A DNA stretch of 64,000 nt, from IMG/VR virus record IMGVR_UViG_3300044295_000306. One strand, written 5' to 3'. A program made the position numbers and the translations under genes. Numbering within the stretch: position 1 is the stretch's first letter; every line of letters begins with the position of its first letter. This document shows, one piece after another, positions 45,869 through 62,167 of this stretch. The notes beneath the pieces were generated by a model, which was not told the origin of the DNA, did not search any database, and saw only the letters and a program-made list of their open reading frames with translations. The stretch comes from a virus. Lineage: Duplodnaviria > Heunggongvirae > Uroviricota > Caudoviricetes.

Positions 45869-47207
45869 TCATCGCTTCTCTTTGTGCATTACTTGTACCT
45901 GCGATTATCGGTTGTTGACTATAAGCAGATCCAACATTAATTATTGTTGAATGTTTTTCGTATGTTATTATATGTCTCGTATCAGTAATCAAATATTTAC
46001 CAGCTAAACTTGCGTCTATGTTATCACTTTTCATGTCTTTGAAAGAATAATCTGGATATTGTAAATCAACTTTTGTGCCAGCGGCTAGAGTAAAATTGCC
46101 GGGTAAAACACAAGTTATCTGTTTCATCATCAATGAATAGATTATAGCTTTTCTCTGTGCAATAATCTTTTCCATACCTTCAGGTTTAAAATATGGCATT
46201 CTTTTCTTGATATATGAACTACCCGTTGAAAGAGAGTCAGTATGTCTTAATATAACATGACTATCATATAAATTTATATTAGATATTCCATCTCTATCTG
46301 TTGATAAACTAAAATTTAAACTTTCTACATCATCAATAGGCTTCATATTACCTAAAGTATCTGCAATATTCTTTTGATATACTCCATAACTATTTGTTAA
46401 CGTATCAAAAGCTAGAAAACTACTGGCATCAATACCTTTTGACACTCTATTCAATATATTTACTTGTTCGGTAACTGTACTTGATTGAACACCAAGTATA
46501 CCTTGTCCTTTTTCACCATTTCTTGAACCTGCCACATTTTTGGGTCTAAAGTTTAAAGGAATTGCAATAGGATTACTATTTAATGATGATAATGAAACAA
46601 AATTAAATCCATTTACATTCTCAAAAAATAAAAATGATGGATTCTGATCAATATCTAAAGCCCTATTCTGACACCATAATATAGCTGTTATTGGTTTATA
46701 ATTAGGAATAACTATATCATTCAATCCTAAAGATGATTCAAAAACACCGCCCATTTTTTCTTCAGACACATTTAATTTATTCATTAATATGTCAATTACA
46801 ACATCAGAATAAAGTCCTGAATAGGATTTGTTAATTTTCATCTGTTCAGATAATATGAATTCTTCGGATGCAAAATTAAGAATATAAACTTCACTAGATT
46901 GACCTATATTTTTTCTATCTGTTACGGAGTATATTCTAAAAGTCTTTTTTAAAGAAGCGAAATCACTACCAGTTTTAGAAATGTCTATATTAATATACTC
47001 TGTTCCATCAAAGTTGATTTTACTAAGCAATCCGACAGAATCACGCATCATTATTTGTCCAGTCATAACAGGACTGAAAAAACTTTCATATATGTCTAAT
47101 TCTGTAAATAGATTTTGAATAGAATATGGTTTGTCTAACACTTTACTTACTATTGACAAATCATTTATTACAAAATCAGTGGACTGTCTAATTGTTTCTA
47201 TTGACAT
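45861..47207 (-). CDS. Baseplate hub protein (gp27-like position between gp53 and gp5)
   Basis: LDIYESFFSPVMTGQI.MRDS, FLFFEN..GFNF.SL, LPGNF.L.AG, GKYLITD.RH. Confidence 0.75.
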   Translation of the reverse strand: MSIETIRQSTDFVINDLSIVSKVLDKPYSIQNLFTELDIYESFFSPVMTGQIMMRDSVGLLSKINFDGTEYINIDISKTGSDFASLKKTFRIYSVTDRKNIGQSSEVYILNFASEEFILSEQMKINKSYSGLYSDVVIDILMNKLNVSEEKMGGVFESSLGLNDIVIPNYKPITAILWCQNRALDIDQNPSFLFFENVNGFNFVSLSSLNSNPIAIPLNFRPKNVAGSRNGEKGQGILGVQSSTVTEQVNILNRVSKGIDASSFLAFDTLTNSYGVYQKNIADTLGNMKPIDDVESLNFSLSTDRDGISNINLYDSHVILRHTDSLSTGSSYIKKRMPYFKPEGMEKIIAQRKAIIYSLMMKQITCVLPGNFTLAAGTKVDLQYPDYSFKDMKSDNIDASLAGKYLITDTRHIITYEKHSTIINVGSAYSQQPIIAGTSNAQREAMNG

Positions 47208-53846: not shown

Positions 53847-53876
53847 AAAAAAAGGGAGCTTTCGCTCCCTCTTTTT
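53847..53876. terminator. Bidirectional terminator between convergent tape-measure and gp32 genes
   Basis: A-tract AGGGAGC-TTTC-GCTCCCT then CTTTTT. Confidence 0.9.
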
Positions 53877-54774
53877 AAGCTTGATTAGCTAGATTCTTAA
53901 AGTAATCCATAGCTTCATCATCGGCATCAACATCGGCAGATGATTTCCTTTGTGCAGCCACAAGTTCCTCTACAGTATCATGACTAACAACCTTAGTGTT
54001 TTCTGCAACAGTCTTAGGAGCAATACCATCGCTACCAAGTGCCTTACTCAAACGCTTTTGCAAATCTTCAGGACTCTTAAACTTGCTTGGATCAATCAAT
54101 TCTTGAAGTCCATATTCTTTCTTCCATAGGTCTTCAATCTTTGAATCATCACCATCAAAAAGAGCAGAAGGAGATGCAAACTCAGACTTGTCATAATTAC
54201 GATAACCTTCAACATTCCTGATCTTCATTCTGAAGTTAGCACCTTCCCAGAAATCAAAAGGATTAACAGCCTTTTCATCCTCAAACTCAGGATTCATTTG
54301 ATCAGAAATCTTATCAAAGATTTTCTTACCATATTTGAATAGTTTGATTTGTCCTTCATTTTCTGGATTTGCAGGATCAGAAATAACAAGAATGTTAGAA
54401 ATATAATTCAATCTACGCTTTTGTTTCCTAACAATTTCCTTGTTCGCTTCAATACCAGAATTCCAAAGAACACTGTTATGTTCACAAGCGGGACACTTAC
54501 CAGAAATAGTTGTTAAACAATCTTCAATGTACCAACCACCAGGACCTTGAAAACCGTGAGAGAAAATTCTTACCCAAGGAAGTGCATCTTCACCATCTAC
54601 GGATGCAGCAGGAAGAAATCGAATAATAGCAGTTCCATTACCAGCTTTATCAACTGTCGGCAACCAAAATCTATCGTCATTACGACCAGTCTCATTTGTA
54701 TTGAGAGTTTCGATAGCTTTTGTAAGCTTATCTAAAGAACCGCGGTTACGTTTAAGATTTGCGAATGAATTCAT
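53875..54774 (-). CDS. gp32: Single-stranded DNA-binding protein gp32
   Basis: DDRFW, GNGTAIIRFLP, HGFQGPGGWYIE.CLTT...CP.CE, FDFWEGANF, acidic tail YFKNLA. Confidence 0.97.
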   Translation of the reverse strand: MNSFANLKRNRGSLDKLTKAIETLNTNETGRNDDRFWLPTVDKAGNGTAIIRFLPAASVDGEDALPWVRIFSHGFQGPGGWYIEDCLTTISGKCPACEHNSVLWNSGIEANKEIVRKQKRRLNYISNILVISDPANPENEGQIKLFKYGKKIFDKISDQMNPEFEDEKAVNPFDFWEGANFRMKIRNVEGYRNYDKSEFASPSALFDGDDSKIEDLWKKEYGLQELIDPSKFKSPEDLQKRLSKALGSDGIAPKTVAENTKVVSHDTVEELVAAQRKSSADVDADDEAMDYFKNLANQA

Positions 54775-54840
54775 TTTTATACCTCGTATGTTAATATGTT
54801 AATATATTTGCTTGTCCACAATATCATAATATAAATCTAT

Positions 54841-55437
54841 TTAGCTCAGTTTCAAGCAAGACCTGAGTAAATTTTCATATGTTTGTTTATTATATCCAAT
54901 AAACGGTTCATACTTTAAACATTGTAATCTATATTCTGGCCATCTGATAGTATCAGTTATTCTTTTTGTCCATAAAGGAAAAAACTTCAATATACCATTT
55001 AAAATTATCAATGTTTCCTGACTAACTTCTCTATGTAATGCTTTAACTAAAAGAATCGGATAATCACCTGCTGTCATTAATACATCATTAGGATTATTAT
55101 GATTTTCAAATAAAACACCACAATCATTTTTGAAAGTGTACGTTAGTGATTGTATCACTTTCATTCTATCTCTGTAAAGAGACATTGCATCATCTTCCAA
55201 TAACTTTCCAACCCAGAACTTAGGTCTATTGAGAAAATTAGCAATAAGAAAATATTCATATTCTTTCTTATCGACAAATTTCCGTGAAAGTTTATAGAAA
55301 AAATACTTCTCTTTCTTATTCTCAAAAGCTTCTATTGATGTTTTGGTTTTTCCTTGATATTTGAAATAATCATAGGAATCTTGATTAAAATGAAGTTTGA
55401 GAGAATTAAAAATTGAGTATGCTTCAAAACCTGTCAT
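54841..55437 (-). CDS. gp59: Helicase loader gp59
   Basis: GFEAY..F.SLKLHF...YDYFKY.GK, YFFYKLSRK, ETLIIL, KYEPF. Confidence 0.92.
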   Translation of the reverse strand: MTGFEAYSIFNSLKLHFNQDSYDYFKYQGKTKTSIEAFENKKEKYFFYKLSRKFVDKKEYEYFLIANFLNRPKFWVGKLLEDDAMSLYRDRMKVIQSLTYTFKNDCGVLFENHNNPNDVLMTAGDYPILLVKALHREVSQETLIILNGILKFFPLWTKRITDTIRWPEYRLQCLKYEPFIGYNKQTYENLLRSCLKLS

Positions 55438-55655
55438 AAAGGAAGTTTAGAAGTTTTCGGAAGAAGATTCAATTCTTGAGCATTCAATTTTAATTTAGAC
55501 TTTAAATTATGATTAACTAATGTGGCAGCAACCTCAATTTCCATTCCAGTCTCATTACAATACTCAACTATTGCATCAATATAATTCATTTCATACTTTA
55601 AAGCAATTTCTTCAACTGCCTTAGCAAAGGCTAGCATTTCACTCTTTGTTGGCAT
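55434..55655 (-). CDS. gp33: Late-transcription coactivator gp33 (probable start MPTK at 55655)
   Basis: FA..VE.I......YIDAIVEYC....EIE....L....LK.KL...A..LNLL. Confidence 0.9.
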   Translation of the reverse strand: MPTKSEMLAFAKAVEEIALKYEMNYIDAIVEYCNETGMEIEVAATLVNHNLKSKLKLNAQELNLLPKTSKLPL

Positions 55656-55923
55656 TTCTTGCAATGATTTCATAAATCTTTTCAAATTGTTCATGATTAG
55701 CCACTTCTTCATCAAAAGATTGCTTATGATACACCTTTACAAGCCTATTGACAAGTCGTTTAGGCAAATCTAAATCATCACAAACTTTCTTAACAGCCTC
55801 TTTAATAAAATCTTTCTCACCAGAAATTCGTGTCAATGCACCAGATGCTTCTTTAAGCATATCTTGTAATTGTTTCCGATCCTCTGGATTTGAAAGGGTA
55901 GTATTTACTTGTTGAACACTCAT
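55639..55923 (-). CDS. dsbA: dsDNA-binding protein DsbA
   Basis: L..ML.EAS..L..I..EKD.IKE......LPK......L...YHKQ.F..E pattern; T4 rnh-dsbA-33-59-32 synteny. Confidence 0.85.
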   Translation of the reverse strand: MSVQQVNTTLSNPEDRKQLQDMLKEASGALTRISGEKDFIKEAVKKVCDDLDLPKRLVNRLVKVYHKQSFDEEVANHEQFEKIYEIIARNANKE

Positions 55924-55932
55924 AATATTTCC

Positions 55933-56202
55933 TTATTTTTTAGGCGCAACAACAGCACCAGTAGCAGCCGAAACAACAACACGATTATATTGTTGCGATG
56001 CTGCCATAGCCACACAAATAGAATCATCACTCTCTGCAAATGAACATCTTACAGAAATAGGATCAATACCTTTACTAATAGCATTGTCAATATTTCCAGA
56101 CATTAATCGCCTATCATTAATCTTATAGAATGTAAACCCACTAATGATCGATAAAAGAATAATAGTCACGCAAATTGAAACACAAACTAATAGCTTTTCC
56201 AC
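55933..56202 (-). CDS. Small single-pass membrane protein
   Basis: N-terminal hydrophobic helix then a soluble domain with two Cys. Confidence 0.65.
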   Translation of the reverse strand: MEKLLVCVSICVTIILLSIISGFTFYKINDRRLMSGNIDNAISKGIDPISVRCSFAESDDSICVAMAASQQYNRVVVSAATGAVVAPKK

Positions 56203-56212
56203 TTATAACTCC

Positions 56213-56758
56213 TTATGTCTTAACTTTATGATAAAAAATATGTCTACCTATTTGAACACTCTTTTTTACATTTTTCCAACCAGGACTTACATAATCAGCA
56301 TGATAAAATAAAGCACCGTTTGTTGGATCAATCATCTTTTCATGATTAACATAAAAATAGATGGCTAATTGCATAACATCATTATAAACGATGTTCCGAC
56401 CTTCTGTCAAGACTTTTGAATTAGAAATTGAATATGGTTTATCTTCACACCACCAAGAAAATTGACATACACCATTTATCTTTTGCTTAACAACACCACA
56501 AATATCATTTTCAAAAATACCAGAATTTACTCTATTCATTGTGACATAAGCAACAGCAATTTGTCCTTCACGAGGTTCAGTTGCAGATTCAAAATAGATA
56601 TTATCAGCTAAACACAAAACTTCCTTTTGTGCCTGTGTCGATAATCGATTATATGCTACCTTAAAAGGATAAGTAACAAAAAAATCTGATAACGAATAAA
56701 AACTGTATAGTATAGTTAAAGATAAAACAATACTCAAGAGAATCAACTTTTTGTACAA
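56213..56758 (-). CDS. Cell-wall hydrolase (SleB/Hydrolase_2 family) with N-terminal membrane anchor
   Basis: CLADNIYFES..EP..GQIAVA.VTMNRV, CQFSW, GALFYHADYV.P.W, IGRHIFY. Confidence 0.9.
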   Translation of the reverse strand: MYKKLILLSIVLSLTILYSFYSLSDFFVTYPFKVAYNRLSTQAQKEVLCLADNIYFESATEPREGQIAVAYVTMNRVNSGIFENDICGVVKQKINGVCQFSWWCEDKPYSISNSKVLTEGRNIVYNDVMQLAIYFYVNHEKMIDPTNGALFYHADYVSPGWKNVKKSVQIGRHIFYHKVKT

Positions 56759-56776
56759 TTGTATCTCCGATTATTA

Positions 56777-56815
56777 AAAAATGGAAGAGAGGTGTTTTGA
56801 TAACAAGGAACACCT
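56777..56815 (-). terminator. Terminal hairpin/terminator of the tmRNA coding piece
   Basis: GAGGTGTT-loop-AACACCTC followed by TCTTCCATTTTT on the minus strand. Confidence 0.65.
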
Positions 56816-57090
56816 CAGAATCCCCGTGAGTTACATTAAGCGGCTAGCTTAAGTTCCTCAAAATAAACGTCGTTTGCGTTTATAAGTTTTGCTAGAATTA
56901 CGTTCTTCGCCTATCGTGCTGTCCGATCCGCTACTCTTTACCCTGTCGAAACCTTGTCGCCCCCATCAGATACATACTCCGTTGCCGCTTGGCACCGAGA
57001 AGATTGACCAGAATATGTATCTGGTGGAAGCGGCGGGAATCGAACCCGCGTCCAGAATACTTTTTACTTCACTTCATACAGCAATATCTA
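56777..57090 (-). ncRNA. ssrA: Circularly permuted (two-piece) tmRNA: acceptor piece, intervening segment, coding piece; tag ANDVYFEELKLAA. Outer ends approximate.
   Basis: Minus strand reads ...UAUUCUG GAC GCGGGUUCGAUUCCCGC CGCUUCC ACCA (ends 57022); then a 57-nt spacer with a 13-bp stem; then GGGGGCG ACAAGGUUUCGA CAGGGUA (starts 56964); tag ORF 56877-56836; G3.U70 present. Confidence 0.93.
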
Positions 57091-57097
57091 CTATTGA

Positions 57098-57541
57098 TTA
57101 GAAAGAATACTTCAAACCAACAGAAACTTTATTACCATCAAAACTCTGTACCTTGTCCTGACCATATTGACGCATTAGATCAGCGGTAACAGAAACCTTA
57201 TTCATAACTGGATAACTAACTCCAACACCTGCAACTCCAGCATATCCATCTTGTGCTCTCTTATTATCAAGATAAGCAACACCACCCTTTACAGCAACAC
57301 TAGCTTGACCAAACTTAGTAACATCATATGAACCAATAACACTAAACTTCTTCTGATTCATATTCTTAGTGTAATCATCAAAACTCGCAGTTACACCATA
57401 TGCACCAAACTTTTGACCAACACTAATACCATAACTAGAACGATCATGCGTAGAATAATCATGATTATCCTTCACACCAACATCAACAGCAAAAGCACTA
57501 AAACTAACAAGCATCATTAAAATACCAATAACTTTCTTCAT
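57098..57541 (-). CDS. Outer-membrane beta-barrel protein (OmpA-TM/Ail-Lom-like, 8-stranded)
   Basis: Signal peptide MKK..LMMLVSFSAFA, alternating beta-strands, C-terminal VGLKYSF (BAM signal ending in Phe). Confidence 0.85.
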   Translation of the reverse strand: MKKVIGILMMLVSFSAFAVDVGVKDNHDYSTHDRSSYGISVGQKFGAYGVTASFDDYTKNMNQKKFSVIGSYDVTKFGQASVAVKGGVAYLDNKRAQDGYAGVAGVGVSYPVMNKVSVTADLMRQYGQDKVQSFDGNKVSVGLKYSF

Positions 57542-57553
57542 AAAAATCTCCTT

Positions 57554-58237
57554 TTAAGGAAGTTGATTAATTTTAGCATTATCTACATATTTTGTCAAAT
57601 CGTTTATATATTTATGCTTTTTTTCCATAAATACTTGTGGTTTAAGTTCTGATTGCGTCGCAACAATGACAACTATATCATTAATCGGTATATCAGTCAG
57701 TTCCTCAAACATTTCAGCATATGCACTACATTGCATGAAATAATTCTTGATTTTATCTTTCTCCTTACTATTGTTAGAAGTCTTAAAGTCTATAACAGAT
57801 AATACACCATTCCAATAAGCAATACAATCAACCCTTCCAGCAATCATCATCTTATGTGAGTATAAAGCCTGCTCTAAACAATATATCTTACCTATATTAT
57901 CCAACAAAACAGGTTTTACTTGAAGAAATAACTCCTTTATATTAGGCATTAACATCCTAATCTTCATGTCAGTCATTTCATTCAATAAAAACTTTTCGCA
58001 TATATCATGAAGTGCTGTACCTCTTCTAGCCGCTCTTCCAGCTATCTTAACAGCTTCTTCTTCACCTACTTTCAGTTTCCACTCTGTAATAACATCTTTA
58101 TTATATGATGAAAGAATAGTTGTCACTGATGGATATTTTTTACCATCAGGTGTACTATAAAATCTTCCTTGTTCCGTAGTTACCGCAGATAAATCAAAAT
58201 CTAACTGCGGTAACTTCTCAATCACAAAATTATGCAA
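57554..58237 (-). CDS. PD-(D/E)XK exonuclease
   Basis: YPSVTTILS, RGTALH, EQALYS...AGRVDCIA, IDFKTS, YFMQCSAYAEM. Confidence 0.9.
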   Translation of the reverse strand: MHNFVIEKLPQLDFDLSAVTTEQGRFYSTPDGKKYPSVTTILSSYNKDVITEWKLKVGEEEAVKIAGRAARRGTALHDICEKFLLNEMTDMKIRMLMPNIKELFLQVKPVLLDNIGKIYCLEQALYSHKMMIAGRVDCIAYWNGVLSVIDFKTSNNSKEKDKIKNYFMQCSAYAEMFEELTDIPINDIVVIVATQSELKPQVFMEKKHKYINDLTKYVDNAKINQLP

Positions 58238-58910
58238 ATCCTAACTCCATTTTAGTAACAATATAATTTTTAACCAATTCTGATCTAACAATATCATGAA
58301 TACCAAATTCAATTTTTTCAAAACAACCCATCTTTTCAACAATCTTCATGAAATCTAATAGACCAGTCTTTTCTTGTTTCATCAAATCACTTTGACGGAA
58401 ATCACCACAAAAAATAATTCTACAGTTATCACCTATTCTTGTAATGACTGTATCCAACTCATGATAATTCATATTCTGTGATTCGTCAACTATTACGATA
58501 GCATTCCTGAATGTTATTCCTCTTAAGTAAGATGTTGTAGCAAACTGTACAATAAATTTATTCTTAAGTATATCATATCCGTCACCGCGTCCAAATAAAT
58601 CATCACAAATCTCACGATACGGTTCTTCAAATACTTTTGTTTTCTCTTTTATATTACCAGGTAAAAATCCCATATCTCTGCTGGGAACAACAGAACGTAA
58701 TATGACGATTTTATCATATATCGCATTACCTTTCAACACTTCATTTAATGCAAGATATAATGAAATATAAGTCTTACCTGTTCCAGCCACACCATGTAGT
58801 AGAAGATTTTTTCCTTCAAAAAATGATCTGAAAGTATCTTCCTGATTAATTGTCAAAGGCTTTATTTTTTTTAAAGAGAAATGTTGTTGTGTTTGTAATT
58901 TCTTTCCCAT
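58230..58910 (-). CDS. phoH: PhoH-family ATPase
   Basis: GVAGTGKT, RSVVP.R.MGFLPG, RGITF, IVDESQN, GDFRQSD, DIVRS.LV. Confidence 0.95.
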   Translation of the reverse strand: MGKKLQTQQHFSLKKIKPLTINQEDTFRSFFEGKNLLLHGVAGTGKTYISLYLALNEVLKGNAIYDKIVILRSVVPSRDMGFLPGNIKEKTKVFEEPYREICDDLFGRGDGYDILKNKFIVQFATTSYLRGITFRNAIVIVDESQNMNYHELDTVITRIGDNCRIIFCGDFRQSDLMKQEKTGLLDFMKIVEKMGCFEKIEFGIHDIVRSELVKNYIVTKMELGFA

Positions 58911-61567: not shown

Positions 61568-62167
61568 TTAAAAAATATTATCGGCCAATTTCATCTTTAC
61601 AACTTCTTCTGGTGTCAGCCAAACATCAGAAGGAGGAAGTAATTTAGTAATAATACTATCCCGACGCATATTACATGAATCCTGTATAACTCTAATCATC
61701 TTTTCATTACAAAAATCAACTTCTTTCATTGTGGCTTGTATCTCATGGGATTTACCTTCTTGTTCCATTGAAAACTGGTGACATAAAACACTAGTATTCT
61801 TGCCAAGATTTCTACCACCTTGAGCACCTGAAATAAAAATAAGAAATGCAGCACTCATCAAATTACCTATACCATAGGTATGAATAGGTATCTTACTTGT
61901 TCGCATTACATCAATTAATGCAAATGCATCATACAAACTACCACCCTCTGAATTTATGTATAATTTTAATACTTTTTCTTTTTCATAATTAAAGTTCTCA
62001 TAGGTAATCCATTTGATAACTTCAAGTACCTTCTTAGTATCAATCTCTTCACTAAGAAAAAATATATGATTCTGAAAAAGAAACTTATCTATTACATCAT
62101 TTTTATCAGCAGCTAATTTCCAATCTAATGCTCTAGTCATACAGTAATCTTTTGTTCTTTCTTCCAA
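61568..62167 (-). CDS. clpP: ClpP-family protease
   Basis: LYINSEGGSLYDAFALID.M, MSAA (Ser), CHQ (His), D.WL.PEE..K..L.D (Asp). Confidence 0.88.
   Translation of the reverse strand: MEERTKDYCMTRALDWKLAADKNDVIDKFLFQNHIFFLSEEIDTKKVLEVIKWITYENFNYEKEKVLKLYINSEGGSLYDAFALIDVMRTSKIPIHTYGIGNLMSAAFLIFISGAQGGRNLGKNTSVLCHQFSMEQEGKSHEIQATMKEVDFCNEKMIRVIQDSCNMRRDSIITKLLPPSDVWLTPEEVVKMKLADNIF

What the first reader, a model, noticed from the sequence alone, without database searches (positions are those of the whole stretch)
56777..57090. Phage-encoded circularly permuted (two-piece) tmRNA with a 13-residue degradation tag
Seen in sequence (minus strand): the tRNA-like 3' half comes first (P2 strand UAUUCUG, GAC, T-arm GCGGG-UUCGAUU-CCCGC, CGCUUCC-ACCA ending at 57022). 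A 57-nt intervening segment follows, closed by a 13-bp stem (57023-57011 with 56979-56967). The tRNA-like 5' half then starts at 56964 (GGGGGCG, D-loop ACAAGGUUUCGA, P2 strand CAGGGUA), followed by a tag ORF GCA AAC GAC GTT TAT TTT GAG GAA CTT AAG CTA GCC GCT TAA and a terminal hairpin. The acceptor stem has the alanine identity pair G3.U70 plus an extra G4.U. Established: permuted tmRNAs occur in Alphaproteobacteria, some Betaproteobacteria, marine Prochlorococcus/Synechococcus and some mitochondria, while the classic phage tmRNAs I recall are one-piece. The tag has the same length and EE at positions 7-8 as the Caulobacter tag ANDNFAEEFAVAA. Inference: the phage supplies its own ribosome-rescue RNA, perhaps against host abortive-infection ribonucleases or to recycle ribosomes during late translation, and the RNA hints at the host lineage. 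No smpB is in this window, so host SmpB, RNase P and AlaRS are probably borrowed.
Basis: partly seen in the sequence, partly recalled or inferred. Interest (0 to 1): 0.88.

Follow-up and report, generated by a model that had tools for sequence, protein, structure and literature searches.

The report
Known-type two-piece tmRNA in freshwater phage
A large T4-like freshwater phage carries its own complete, rearranged ("two-piece") gene for tmRNA, the RNA that frees stalled ribosomes; the gene is real and looks functional, but phage genes of this kind are already published, so this is a new member of a known class.

Summary
ARAGORN calls a permuted tmRNA at 56745-57114(-) with tag ANDVYFEELKLAA. 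Rfam gives tmRNA_permuted 139.9 bits (cut-off 47) and beta_tmRNA 102.5 bits (cut-off 84).

Across 83 unique permuted tmRNAs, covariation supports the acceptor stem (G3.U70 invariant), T-arm, P2 and the 13-bp stem closing the 57-nt spacer. Synonymous codon changes show that the tag peptide is under selection.

The window is a T4-like myovirus whose DNA is held by runs labelled freshwater metagenome. The gene sits in a conserved slot, PhoH-exonuclease | tmRNA | gp33-gp59-gp32. About 30 IMG/VR contigs, Pelagibacter phage HTVC008M and Methylophilales phage Melnitz share that slot.

The novelty premise fails. Buchholz et al. 2022 (PMC9004378) described two-piece tmRNAs in Melnitz and pelagimyophages and counted 53 in phage genomes. 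This scan has also met phage two-piece tmRNAs many times on other DNA.

What differs here:
- The gene is betaproteobacterial-type, not alpha-type as in Melnitz and HTVC008M.
- It has no glutamine riboswitch.
- It has a divergent 13-residue tag; the likeness to the Caulobacter tag is probably coincidental.

No smpB is present in the window or in five large related viral genomes. A phage ClpP lies 4.4 kb away but is not a consistent partner.

Verdict: real, ordinary, new member of a known kind.

The parts
56762..57129 (-). Whole permuted tmRNA (ssrA) gene: acceptor piece, spacer and coding piece
   Evidence: Rfam beta_tmRNA 102.5 bits, full length 1-331; ARAGORN tmRNA* 56745-57114
57079..57083 (-). 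Distal P2 5' strand (UGCUG), pairs with 56917-56921
   Evidence: 96 % standard pairs with compensatory changes across 83 sequences, against 67 % or less in slid registers
57053..57059 (-). Proximal P2 5' strand (UAU-U-CUG), pairs with 56939-56945
   Evidence: 98 % standard pairs, 102 cells changed on both sides, against 70 % or less in slid registers
57033..57049 (-). T-arm GCGGG-UUCGAUU-CCCGC
   Evidence: 100 % paired; the second pair shows four pair types
57022..57032 (-). Acceptor 3' strand CGCUUCC plus encoded ACCA; predicted mature 3' end of the acceptor piece at 57022
   Evidence: Sequence; acceptor pairs 100 % standard with covariation at positions 4-6; G3.U70 in 83 of 83; G4.U69 only in this gene
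56965..57021 (-). 57-nt intervening segment, predicted to be removed on maturation; the 13-bp closing stem 57023-57011 / 56979-56967 starts inside the CCA end
   Evidence: 91 % standard pairs, 224 cells changed on both sides, against 49 % or less in slid registers. Precursor hairpin -36.0 kcal/mol, z -4.9. The same stem occurs in cellular beta-type genes. It is too short to hold a gene.
56946..56964 (-). Acceptor 5' strand GGGGGCG (G1 = 56964, predicted RNase P site) and D-loop-like ACAAGGUUUCGA
56917..56945 (-). P2 3' strands: CAG-G-GUA at 56945-56939 and CAGCA at 56921-56917. The middle segment 56930-56927 is not paired.
   Evidence: the mid-P2 segment scores 40 %, the same as the controls
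56891..56916 (-). PK1-like region upstream of the resume codon
   Evidence: Only two covarying pairs per stem (56916-15/56901-02 and 56910-09/56891-92), plus an alternative pairing: inconclusive
56836..56877 (-). Tag reading frame: GCA resume codon to TAA, encoding ANDVYFEELKLAA
   Evidence: synonymous codon variation at conserved residues across 77 unique tag frames
56789..56816 (-). 3' hairpin GAGGUGU / ACACCUC whose loop matches the beta-type consensus
   Evidence: Alignment to the beta_tmRNA model; the MAFFT alignment here is too poor for covariation
57098..57541 (-). Upstream neighbour: 147-aa putative outer-membrane beta-barrel protein ending KYSF
   Evidence: Weak Porin_4 (E 2e-5) and Phage_OMP (E 0.009) matches, both below the Pfam cut-offs
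56213..56758 (-). Downstream neighbour: cell-wall hydrolase with a hydrophobic N-terminus. Its ribosome-binding site lies in the last bases of the tmRNA model.
   Evidence: Pfam Hydrolase_2, 80 bits; PHROG endolysin; sequence
53875..55923 (-). T4-type block DsbA (55639-55923), gp33 (55434-55715), gp59 (54841-55437), gp32 (53875-54774): the downstream side of the conserved slot
57554..58910 (-). PD-(D/E)XK exonuclease (57554-58237) and PhoH (58230-58910): the upstream side of the conserved slot
   Evidence: the same order occurs in Melnitz and HTVC008M
61568..62167 (-). Phage ClpP, 4.4 kb upstream; a possible but not consistent partner
   Evidence: Pfam CLP_protease, 96 bits; present in 3 of 10 other tmRNA-bearing phage genomes searched

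Best explanation
This is a functional, betaproteobacterial-type two-piece tmRNA gene carried by a large freshwater T4-like myovirus, in a slot that relatives also use for a tmRNA. Inferred mechanism: the gene is transcribed as one precursor in which the acceptor stem continues into a 13-bp stem that closes the 57-nt spacer. Host tRNA-processing enzymes then act: RNase P cuts 5' of G56964 and the 3' end is trimmed to the encoded CCA at 57022, removing the spacer. Two RNAs remain, held together by the acceptor stem and P2. Host AlaRS charges the RNA through G3.U70, and host SmpB and EF-Tu deliver it to ribosomes stalled on broken mRNAs. Translation resumes at GCA and adds ANDVYFEELKLAA, whose LAA end marks the product for Clp-type proteolysis. 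For the phage the likely benefit is to keep ribosome rescue running after host transcription stops and mRNAs are being cut, alongside the roughly 30 tRNAs that earlier notes report in the same genome. Shown here: the gene's identity, its conserved structure, selection on the tag peptide, the phage context and the absence of smpB. Inferred: processing, charging, tagging and the benefit to the phage.
For: Identity: ARAGORN and two Rfam models. Structure: the acceptor stem, T-arm, proximal and distal P2 and the spacer stem all covary and far exceed slid-register controls in 83 unique sequences. G3.U70 is invariant. Translation of the tag: across 77 unique tag frames, Leu at position -3 uses six codons, the last two Ala four codons each, and all three stop codons occur. 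Phage context: gp23, gp20, gp18, gp17, gp6, gp32, gp59, gp33 and DsbA. At least 97 % of the sampled words of this stretch are held by runs labelled freshwater metagenome from five studies, four of which may include the source sample. Long retention: the same slot is used in about 30 IMG/VR contigs whose proteins are 30-75 % identical to the window's, and in Melnitz and HTVC008M. Dependence on the host: no SmpB in the window (best E 0.13 against 4e-87 for the control) or in five large related viral genomes, two of them estimated 100 % complete. Published precedent: PMC9004378.
Against: There is no direct evidence that this gene is expressed or processed. RNA-library contigs matched only the universally conserved 32-mer, plus two low-depth contigs from a relative about 95 % identical. 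No sigma-70-type promoter lies directly upstream and no terminator-like site was found. The middle P2 segment does not pair and PK1 is only weakly supported. The beta_tmRNA score of 102.5 bits is lower than that of most relatives scanned (148-171 bits for L009, L017, L020, L110 and L111, though 89-111 for L016, L092 and L034), so the non-tRNA parts are divergent. G4.U69 is unique among the 83 sequences and its effect on charging is unknown.
Confidence: 0.8

Rival explanations
1. The RNA acts mainly as a decoy or modifier of host trans-translation. It would soak up host SmpB or replace the host tag with a phage-chosen one, so that the fate of tagged proteins changes (for example through the phage ClpP), rather than simply adding rescue capacity.
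For: The tag has three more residues and is more charged than the 10-residue tags of the nearest cellular genes, such as ANDESYALAA and ANDENFALAA. A phage ClpP lies 4.4 kb away. A tRNA-like-domain-only phage tmRNA (DS6A) is reported to inhibit host tmRNA (PMC4131195).
Against: The gene is complete and its reading frame is under peptide-level selection, ending in the canonical LAA, which argues for ordinary tagging. ClpP accompanies the tmRNA in only 3 of 10 other phage genomes, and neither Melnitz nor HTVC008M has it.
Confidence: 0.1
2. The phage uses the tmRNA to tag and destroy host nascent proteins early in infection and so recycle amino acids. Buchholz et al. proposed this alternative for Melnitz.
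For: Proposed in PMC9004378. A strong sigma-70-like promoter (TTGACA-17-TAAAAT with an upstream TG) lies about 450 nt upstream at 57598-57570 and could give early transcription through the 147-aa gene into the tmRNA.
Against: tmRNA acts only on ribosomes stalled at mRNA ends, so selective tagging of host proteins would need selective cutting of host mRNA, for which nothing was found here. The promoter count in the region is not above shuffled sequence.
Confidence: 0.07
3. The gene is a non-functional passenger: a recently captured host ssrA, an attachment-site remnant, or an assembly chimera.
For: tmRNA genes are common integration sites, and fragments of them occur in prophages (PMC9004378).
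Against: Both halves are intact and flanked by T4-type genes on one contig. At least 97 % of the stretch's sampled words are held by runs from five studies. The nearest cellular gene is only 60-63 % identical over shared alignment columns, against 68 % for the nearest phage gene. The slot is conserved in about 30 viral contigs. Structure and tag are under selection.
Confidence: 0.03

Closest known systems
Two-piece ssrA of Methylophilales phage Melnitz and Pelagibacter phage HTVC008M (Buchholz et al. 2022, PMC9004378)
   Same: A circularly permuted tmRNA in a T4-like (Kyanoviridae) aquatic myophage, in the same slot: PhoH, exonuclease, tmRNA, gp33, gp59, gp32. No smpB is reported for them and none was found here.
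   Different: Their genes score best as alpha_tmRNA (106.7 and 83.8 bits) while this one scores best as beta_tmRNA. Melnitz has a glutamine riboswitch directly after the gene (recovered); none is found here even at E up to 5. This phage's DNA is held by runs labelled freshwater metagenome, and its gp32 is only 52-55 % identical to the best cultured-phage matches.
Cellular betaproteobacterial two-piece tmRNA (Rfam RF01850)
   Same: The same gene order, the same long precursor hairpin starting in the CCA end and a similar conserved loop in the 3' hairpin. This is the best-scoring family within the tmRNA clan. The nearest cellular genes are permuted genes in genomes of 1.9-3.0 Mb from one Burkholderiales family, with local GC of 40-45 % at the three loci measured.
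   Different: Identity over shared columns is only 60-63 %. The cellular tags are 10 residues (ANDESYALAA, ANDENFALAA) against 13 here. The spacer is 57 nt against 33-42 nt. The carrier is a lytic-type phage, not a chromosome.
Caulobacter / alphaproteobacterial two-piece tmRNA (Rfam RF01849; Keiler et al. 2000, cited in PMC9004378)
   Same: The two-piece architecture and a 13-residue tag with acidic residues in the middle.
   Different: It is not the best Rfam family for this gene. The 401 sampled alphaproteobacterial genomes match only the 32-nt T-arm and acceptor core. The tag likeness is best explained as coincidence, since tag length varies from 10 to about 30 residues within the phage family.
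One-piece phage tmRNAs (mycobacteriophage Bxz1 group, Bacillus phage G; PMC4131195)
   Same: A phage-borne ribosome-rescue RNA without a phage smpB.
   Different: Those genes have the standard, unpermuted order and come from unrelated phages of Gram-positive hosts.

Membership tests
Permuted (two-piece) tmRNA, Rfam RF04321 / beta type RF01850 | Covariance-model score above the curated cut-off over the full model | tested here: met
   RF04321 139.9 bits (cut-off 47), model positions 1-213; RF01850 102.5 bits (cut-off 84), positions 1-331
Permuted (two-piece) tmRNA, Rfam RF04321 / beta type RF01850 | Permuted gene order: T-arm, acceptor 3' strand and CCA lie upstream of the acceptor 5' strand, D-loop and tag frame | tested here: met
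   Sequence; ARAGORN permuted call
Permuted (two-piece) tmRNA, Rfam RF04321 / beta type RF01850 | 7-bp acceptor stem with the alanine identity pair G3.U70 | tested here: met
   100 % standard pairs, covariation at positions 4-6, G3.U70 in 83 of 83
Permuted (two-piece) tmRNA, Rfam RF04321 / beta type RF01850 | P2 helix that holds the two pieces together | tested here: met
   The proximal (98 %) and distal (96 %) segments covary; the middle segment is unpaired in this gene and not supported across the family
Permuted (two-piece) tmRNA, Rfam RF04321 / beta type RF01850 | Tag reading frame from a GCA resume codon to a stop, ending in hydrophobic residues plus AA, and selected as a peptide | tested here: met
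   ANDVYFEELKLAA followed by TAA; synonymous variation at conserved residues in 77 unique frames
Permuted (two-piece) tmRNA, Rfam RF04321 / beta type RF01850 | Pseudoknot PK1 upstream of the resume codon | tested here: inconclusive
   Only two covarying pairs per stem, plus a competing pairing
Permuted (two-piece) tmRNA, Rfam RF04321 / beta type RF01850 | Precursor is cut into two mature RNAs | tested here: inconclusive
   RNA-library contigs do not bridge the spacer, but they come from relatives or from the universal core and are contigs, not reads
Permuted (two-piece) tmRNA, Rfam RF04321 / beta type RF01850 | Alanylation, SmpB binding and tagging of nonstop products | not testable with these tools
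   Needs biochemistry or a reporter assay
Melnitz-type phage ssrA with glutamine riboswitch (PMC9004378) | Position between the PhoH/exonuclease block and the gp33-gp59-gp32 block of a T4-like phage | tested here: met
Melnitz-type phage ssrA with glutamine riboswitch (PMC9004378) | Alphaproteobacterial-type tmRNA | tested here: not met
   beta_tmRNA is the best in the clan here, while Melnitz and HTVC008M score best as alpha_tmRNA
Melnitz-type phage ssrA with glutamine riboswitch (PMC9004378) | Glutamine riboswitch (RF01739) at the 3' side of the gene | tested here: not met
   No match in 55000-58500 at E up to 5; the positive control was found in Melnitz at 52.8 bits
Alphaproteobacterial two-piece tmRNA (RF01849) | Best-scoring clan member, and sequence similarity to alphaproteobacterial genes beyond the tRNA core | tested here: not met
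   only 13 of 401 genomes match; 12 only within the 23-36-nt T-arm/acceptor core, one weak 85-nt match at 69 % identity

The most novel reading that the evidence does not exclude
The tmRNA slot of T4-like aquatic myophages (PhoH-exonuclease | tmRNA | gp33-gp59-gp32) behaves as an exchangeable cassette. Marine SAR11 and OM43 phages hold an alpha-type gene there and this freshwater clade holds a beta-type gene. The RNA would therefore be swapped in place to suit the host's SmpB, AlaRS and protease machinery, and could serve as a host-lineage marker for uncultured phages. In this phage, the divergent 13-residue tag together with the phage's own ClpP might give partly phage-controlled tagging and proteolysis.
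Probability: 0.25. Interest if true: 0.45.

Novelty: new member of a known kind. Interest (0 to 1): 0.22.

Why it matters
The finding adds a freshwater, beta-type example to a phenomenon so far described mainly in marine phages. It also shows that the same genomic slot holds different tmRNA lineages in related phage groups. That could help assign hosts to uncultured freshwater phages, although Melnitz shows that tmRNA type and host can disagree. It also strengthens the picture of large T4-like phages carrying a translation-maintenance kit (tRNAs, tmRNA, possibly ClpP). It does not open a new kind of system: what any phage tmRNA does for its phage is still untested, and this gene does not make that question easier to test because the host is unknown.

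Tried and rejected
1. Glutamine riboswitch as in Melnitz: none in 55000-58500 even at E up to 5.
2. Close relatives among 50,697 deposited phage records: blastn found only two short T-arm matches, and megablast of 19 kb found only a short gp32 stretch.
No host could be assigned.
4. Alphaproteobacterial origin: rejected. One of the 401 genomes in that sample, G445, is flagged unpublished.
5. Expression and processing from public RNA runs: three aquatic metatranscriptomes hold only the universal 32-mer, plus two low-depth contigs from a relative about 95 % identical. This is not evidence about this gene either way.
6. Promoter and terminator scans: nothing directly upstream, no terminator-like site, and promoter counts not above shuffled sequence.
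7. Middle P2 segment from the Rfam consensus: not paired here and not supported across the family.
8. ViennaRNA co-fold of the two pieces reproduced the acceptor stem and proximal P2 but not the T-arm, so I did not use it as evidence.
9. tmRNA plus ClpP as a fixed module: ClpP is present in only 3 of 10 other tmRNA-bearing phage genomes.
10. A small gene inside the spacer, as earlier notes found in other phage tmRNAs: the spacer here is only 57 nt, with no plausible frame.
11. Sharkady and Williams 2004 could not be read, so I could not check whether the spacer stem is already described there.

Full report
**Observation.**
- The T-arm is at 57049-57033 and the acceptor 3' strand CGCUUCC at 57032-57026.
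- The encoded ACCA ends at 57022.
- A 57-nt spacer spans 57021-56965. It is closed by a 13-bp stem (57023-57011 with 56979-56967, one U.G wobble at 57013/56977).
- The acceptor 5' strand GGGGGCG starts at 56964, followed by the D-loop-like ACAAGGUUUCGA.
- The tag frame runs from GCA (56877) to TAA (56836), followed by a hairpin at 56816-56789.

ARAGORN calls a permuted tmRNA at 56745-57114(-) with the tag ANDVYFEELKLAA, and it is the only tRNA-like gene in the window. Rfam gives tmRNA_permuted (RF04321) at 139.9 bits against a cut-off of 47. It gives beta_tmRNA (RF01850) at 102.5 bits against a cut-off of 84. Both are full length, with E-values near 1e-27 to 1e-30.

**Structure tested by comparison.** A pattern scan for the permuted arrangement found 87 IMG/VR viral contigs and 17 cellular contigs. 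ARAGORN finds a permuted tmRNA with an in-frame tag in 86 of the 87 viral loci. I aligned 83 unique sequences and counted pairs at helices defined from the window, using partners slid by 1-3 columns as a control.

| Helix | Standard pairs, true register | Best slid register |
|---|---|---|
| Acceptor stem | 100 % | 69 % |
| T-arm | 100 % | 86 % |
| Proximal P2 | 98 % | 70 % |
| Distal P2 | 96 % | 67 % |
| Spacer stem | 91 % (224 cells changed on both sides) | 49 % (72 or fewer) |
| Middle P2 (Rfam consensus) | 40 % | 42 % |

- G3.U70 is present in all 83 sequences.
- The middle P2 segment is not paired here and scores like its controls.
- PK1 has only weak support.
- The precursor hairpin folds at -36.0 kcal/mol, z = -4.9.
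- The same CCA-anchored stem occurs in cellular beta-type genes. It is therefore a trait of this gene type rather than a phage invention. The Rfam models do not annotate it.

**The tag is translated.** Across 77 unique tag frames the conserved residues are written with many synonymous codons. Ala1 uses three codons, and Asn2 and Asp3 two each. Leu at position -3 uses six, and each of the last two Ala uses four. All three stop codons occur. This is the signature of selection on the peptide, not only on the RNA.

**Context.** The window is a T4-like myovirus.
- It encodes the major head protein, portal, sheath, large terminase and baseplate wedge proteins.
- It also encodes gp32, gp59, gp33, a PD-(D/E)XK exonuclease and PhoH, and T4 DsbA and a denV-like glycosylase.
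- No cultured phage is close: the best gp32 match is 55 % (Prochlorococcus phages P-SSM5 and P-SSM2) and 52 % for HTVC008M.
- At least 97 % of the sampled words of this stretch are held by runs labelled freshwater metagenome from five studies; runs from two further studies hold only 7-12 %.
- Earlier notes on the same genome report about 30 tRNAs, early-promoter cassettes and bL12-like proteins just beyond the window. I did not test these.

**A conserved slot.** In about 30 of the 87 viral contigs the tmRNA lies in the same place as here. On one side are the denV-like gene, a small ORF, PhoH and the exonuclease. On the other are the cell-wall hydrolase, small ORFs, gp33, gp59 and gp32. Protein identities to the window range from about 30 to 75 %. 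A further dozen or so short contigs keep one side of this arrangement. The two published marine phages use the same slot. Melnitz has an annotated SsrA at 45984-46436, between a PDDEXK nuclease and the late-transcription coactivator. HTVC008M has an unannotated tmRNA at 145161-145370, between its exonuclease and gp33.

**Lineage.**
- Within the Rfam tmRNA clan, the window and the syntenic viral contigs L017, L020 and L009 score best as beta_tmRNA. So do the viral contigs L034 and L016 (no synteny seen), the cellular genes L110 and L111, and the extra Herbaspirillum copy L092.
- Melnitz and HTVC008M score best as alpha_tmRNA. The Melnitz glutamine riboswitch is recovered as a positive control.
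- No glutamine riboswitch is present here.
- In 401 sampled genomes of the betaproteobacterial order, four match across both halves of the gene (69-83 % identity). These are permuted genes with 10-residue tags in genomes of 1.9-2.4 Mb.
- A sample of one GTDB family found this type in 4 of 71 genomes.
- In 401 sampled Alphaproteobacteria, 13 genomes match. Twelve do so only in the T-arm and acceptor core of about 23-36 nt, and one has a weak 85-nt match at 69 % identity.
- Over shared alignment columns the nearest sequence is the syntenic viral contig L017 (68 %), while cellular genes reach 60-63 %.
- A FastTree tree places the window next to L017 inside a large viral radiation, with the cellular beta-type clade adjacent. 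The RNA is short and I did not assess support, so I use the tree only for this coarse statement.
- Tags in the radiation range from 10 residues (ANDxxFALAA) through 13 to about 30. The 13-residue length and the EE shared with Caulobacter are therefore most likely coincidental.

**Dependence on the host.**
- An SmpB profile built from five cellular genomes finds nothing in the window (best E 0.13; control 4e-87).
- Pfam SmpB finds nothing in five large related viral genomes. Two of these are estimated 100 % complete and one 90 %.
- A phage ClpP is real at 61568-62167. It occurs in only 3 of 10 other tmRNA-bearing phage genomes and in neither Melnitz nor HTVC008M. It is therefore not an obligate partner.

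**Expression.** No DNA-independent evidence exists for this gene.
- Three aquatic metatranscriptomes hold parts of it. When laid on the window, they cover mostly the 32-nt core shared by many organisms' tmRNAs.
- Two low-depth contigs are about 95 % identical over 56836-56953. They come from a relative and do not cross the spacer.
- No consensus promoter lies directly upstream. A strong one at 57598-57570 could drive the 147-aa gene and the tmRNA together, but promoter counts do not exceed shuffled sequence.

**What is known.**
- Buchholz et al. 2022 (PMC9004378) described the two-piece ssrA of Melnitz. They found permuted tmRNAs in 17 of 47 related contigs and counted 53 two-piece tmRNAs among 18,146 phage genomes, 50 of them from marine or aquatic samples.
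- The 2025 database paper lists 79 unique phage tmRNAs and is the source of RF04321 (PMC11915505).
- This scan has also noted phage two-piece tmRNAs many times on other DNA (427 notes holding all the search words, in at least 395 genomes). Most listed follow-ups call such genes an already known kind, and three name the beta type as closest.

**Mechanism and rivals.** The best-supported reading is an ordinary, working two-piece tmRNA that relies on host RNase P, 3' trimming, AlaRS, SmpB and proteases. The phage probably keeps it to sustain ribosome rescue during infection. Less likely readings:
- a decoy or tag-rewriting role;
- selective tagging of host proteins, as Buchholz et al. suggested;
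- a non-functional passenger, which the conservation data effectively exclude.

**Verdict.** The observation and the core interpretation are right, and the claim of novelty is not. The gene is a new, rather divergent, freshwater, beta-type member of a published class. The one modestly new point is that the same slot holds alpha-type genes in marine relatives and beta-type genes in this clade. That fits cassette exchange but does not prove it.

Noticed in passing
L092:771-1116 (Herbaspirillum sp. alder98); also L090, L093, L094, L095, L102, L103: Several Oxalobacteraceae genomes (Herbaspirillum, Duganella) carry a permuted tmRNA with an unusual tag ending in GT (for example ANEPQFVAYGT). In the one genome checked it sits alongside a normal one-piece tmRNA (L108, ANDNSYAQAA). 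In the tree these extra copies sit on a long branch inside the viral radiation. In L092 a tRNA and a phage-type integrase lie 2 kb away, but the tmRNA is on the other side of the tRNA, so island membership is unclear.
   Followed up: partly
window 57098-57541 (-): The 147-aa protein directly upstream of the tmRNA ends in KYSF and has weak, sub-threshold matches to Gram-negative porin and to the cyanophage outer-membrane beta-barrel family. In the nearest viral contig (L017) its 29 %-identical homologue lies downstream of the tmRNA instead.
   Followed up: partly
window 61568-62167 (-): Phage-encoded ClpP (Pfam CLP_protease, 96 bits) in a T4-like genome. It is present in 3 of 10 other tmRNA-bearing phage genomes searched, one of which has two copies.
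   Followed up: partly
window 56213-56758 (-): A cell-wall hydrolase (Hydrolase_2) with a Lys-rich, then hydrophobic, N-terminus that looks like a signal anchor. Its TTG start and GGAG ribosome-binding site overlap the last hairpin of the tmRNA model, so it is probably co-transcribed with the tmRNA.
   Followed up: no
KC465899.1 145161-145370 (L138): The deposited record of Pelagibacter phage HTVC008M has no tmRNA feature, but a permuted tmRNA scores 90.6 bits with RF04321 and 83.8 bits with alpha_tmRNA there. It partly overlaps an annotated hypothetical CDS at 144891-145181.
   Followed up: partly
window 56381-56410 (-): A perfect 12-of-12 sigma-70 consensus (TTGACA, 18 nt, TATAAT) lies inside the hydrolase gene, upstream of the 89-aa ORF and DsbA. 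It may be one of the early-promoter cassettes that earlier notes describe elsewhere in this genome.
   Followed up: no
window 57011-57023 / 56967-56979: The spacer stem starts inside the CCA end of the acceptor piece. The two may share a processing logic; I did not test this.
   Followed up: no
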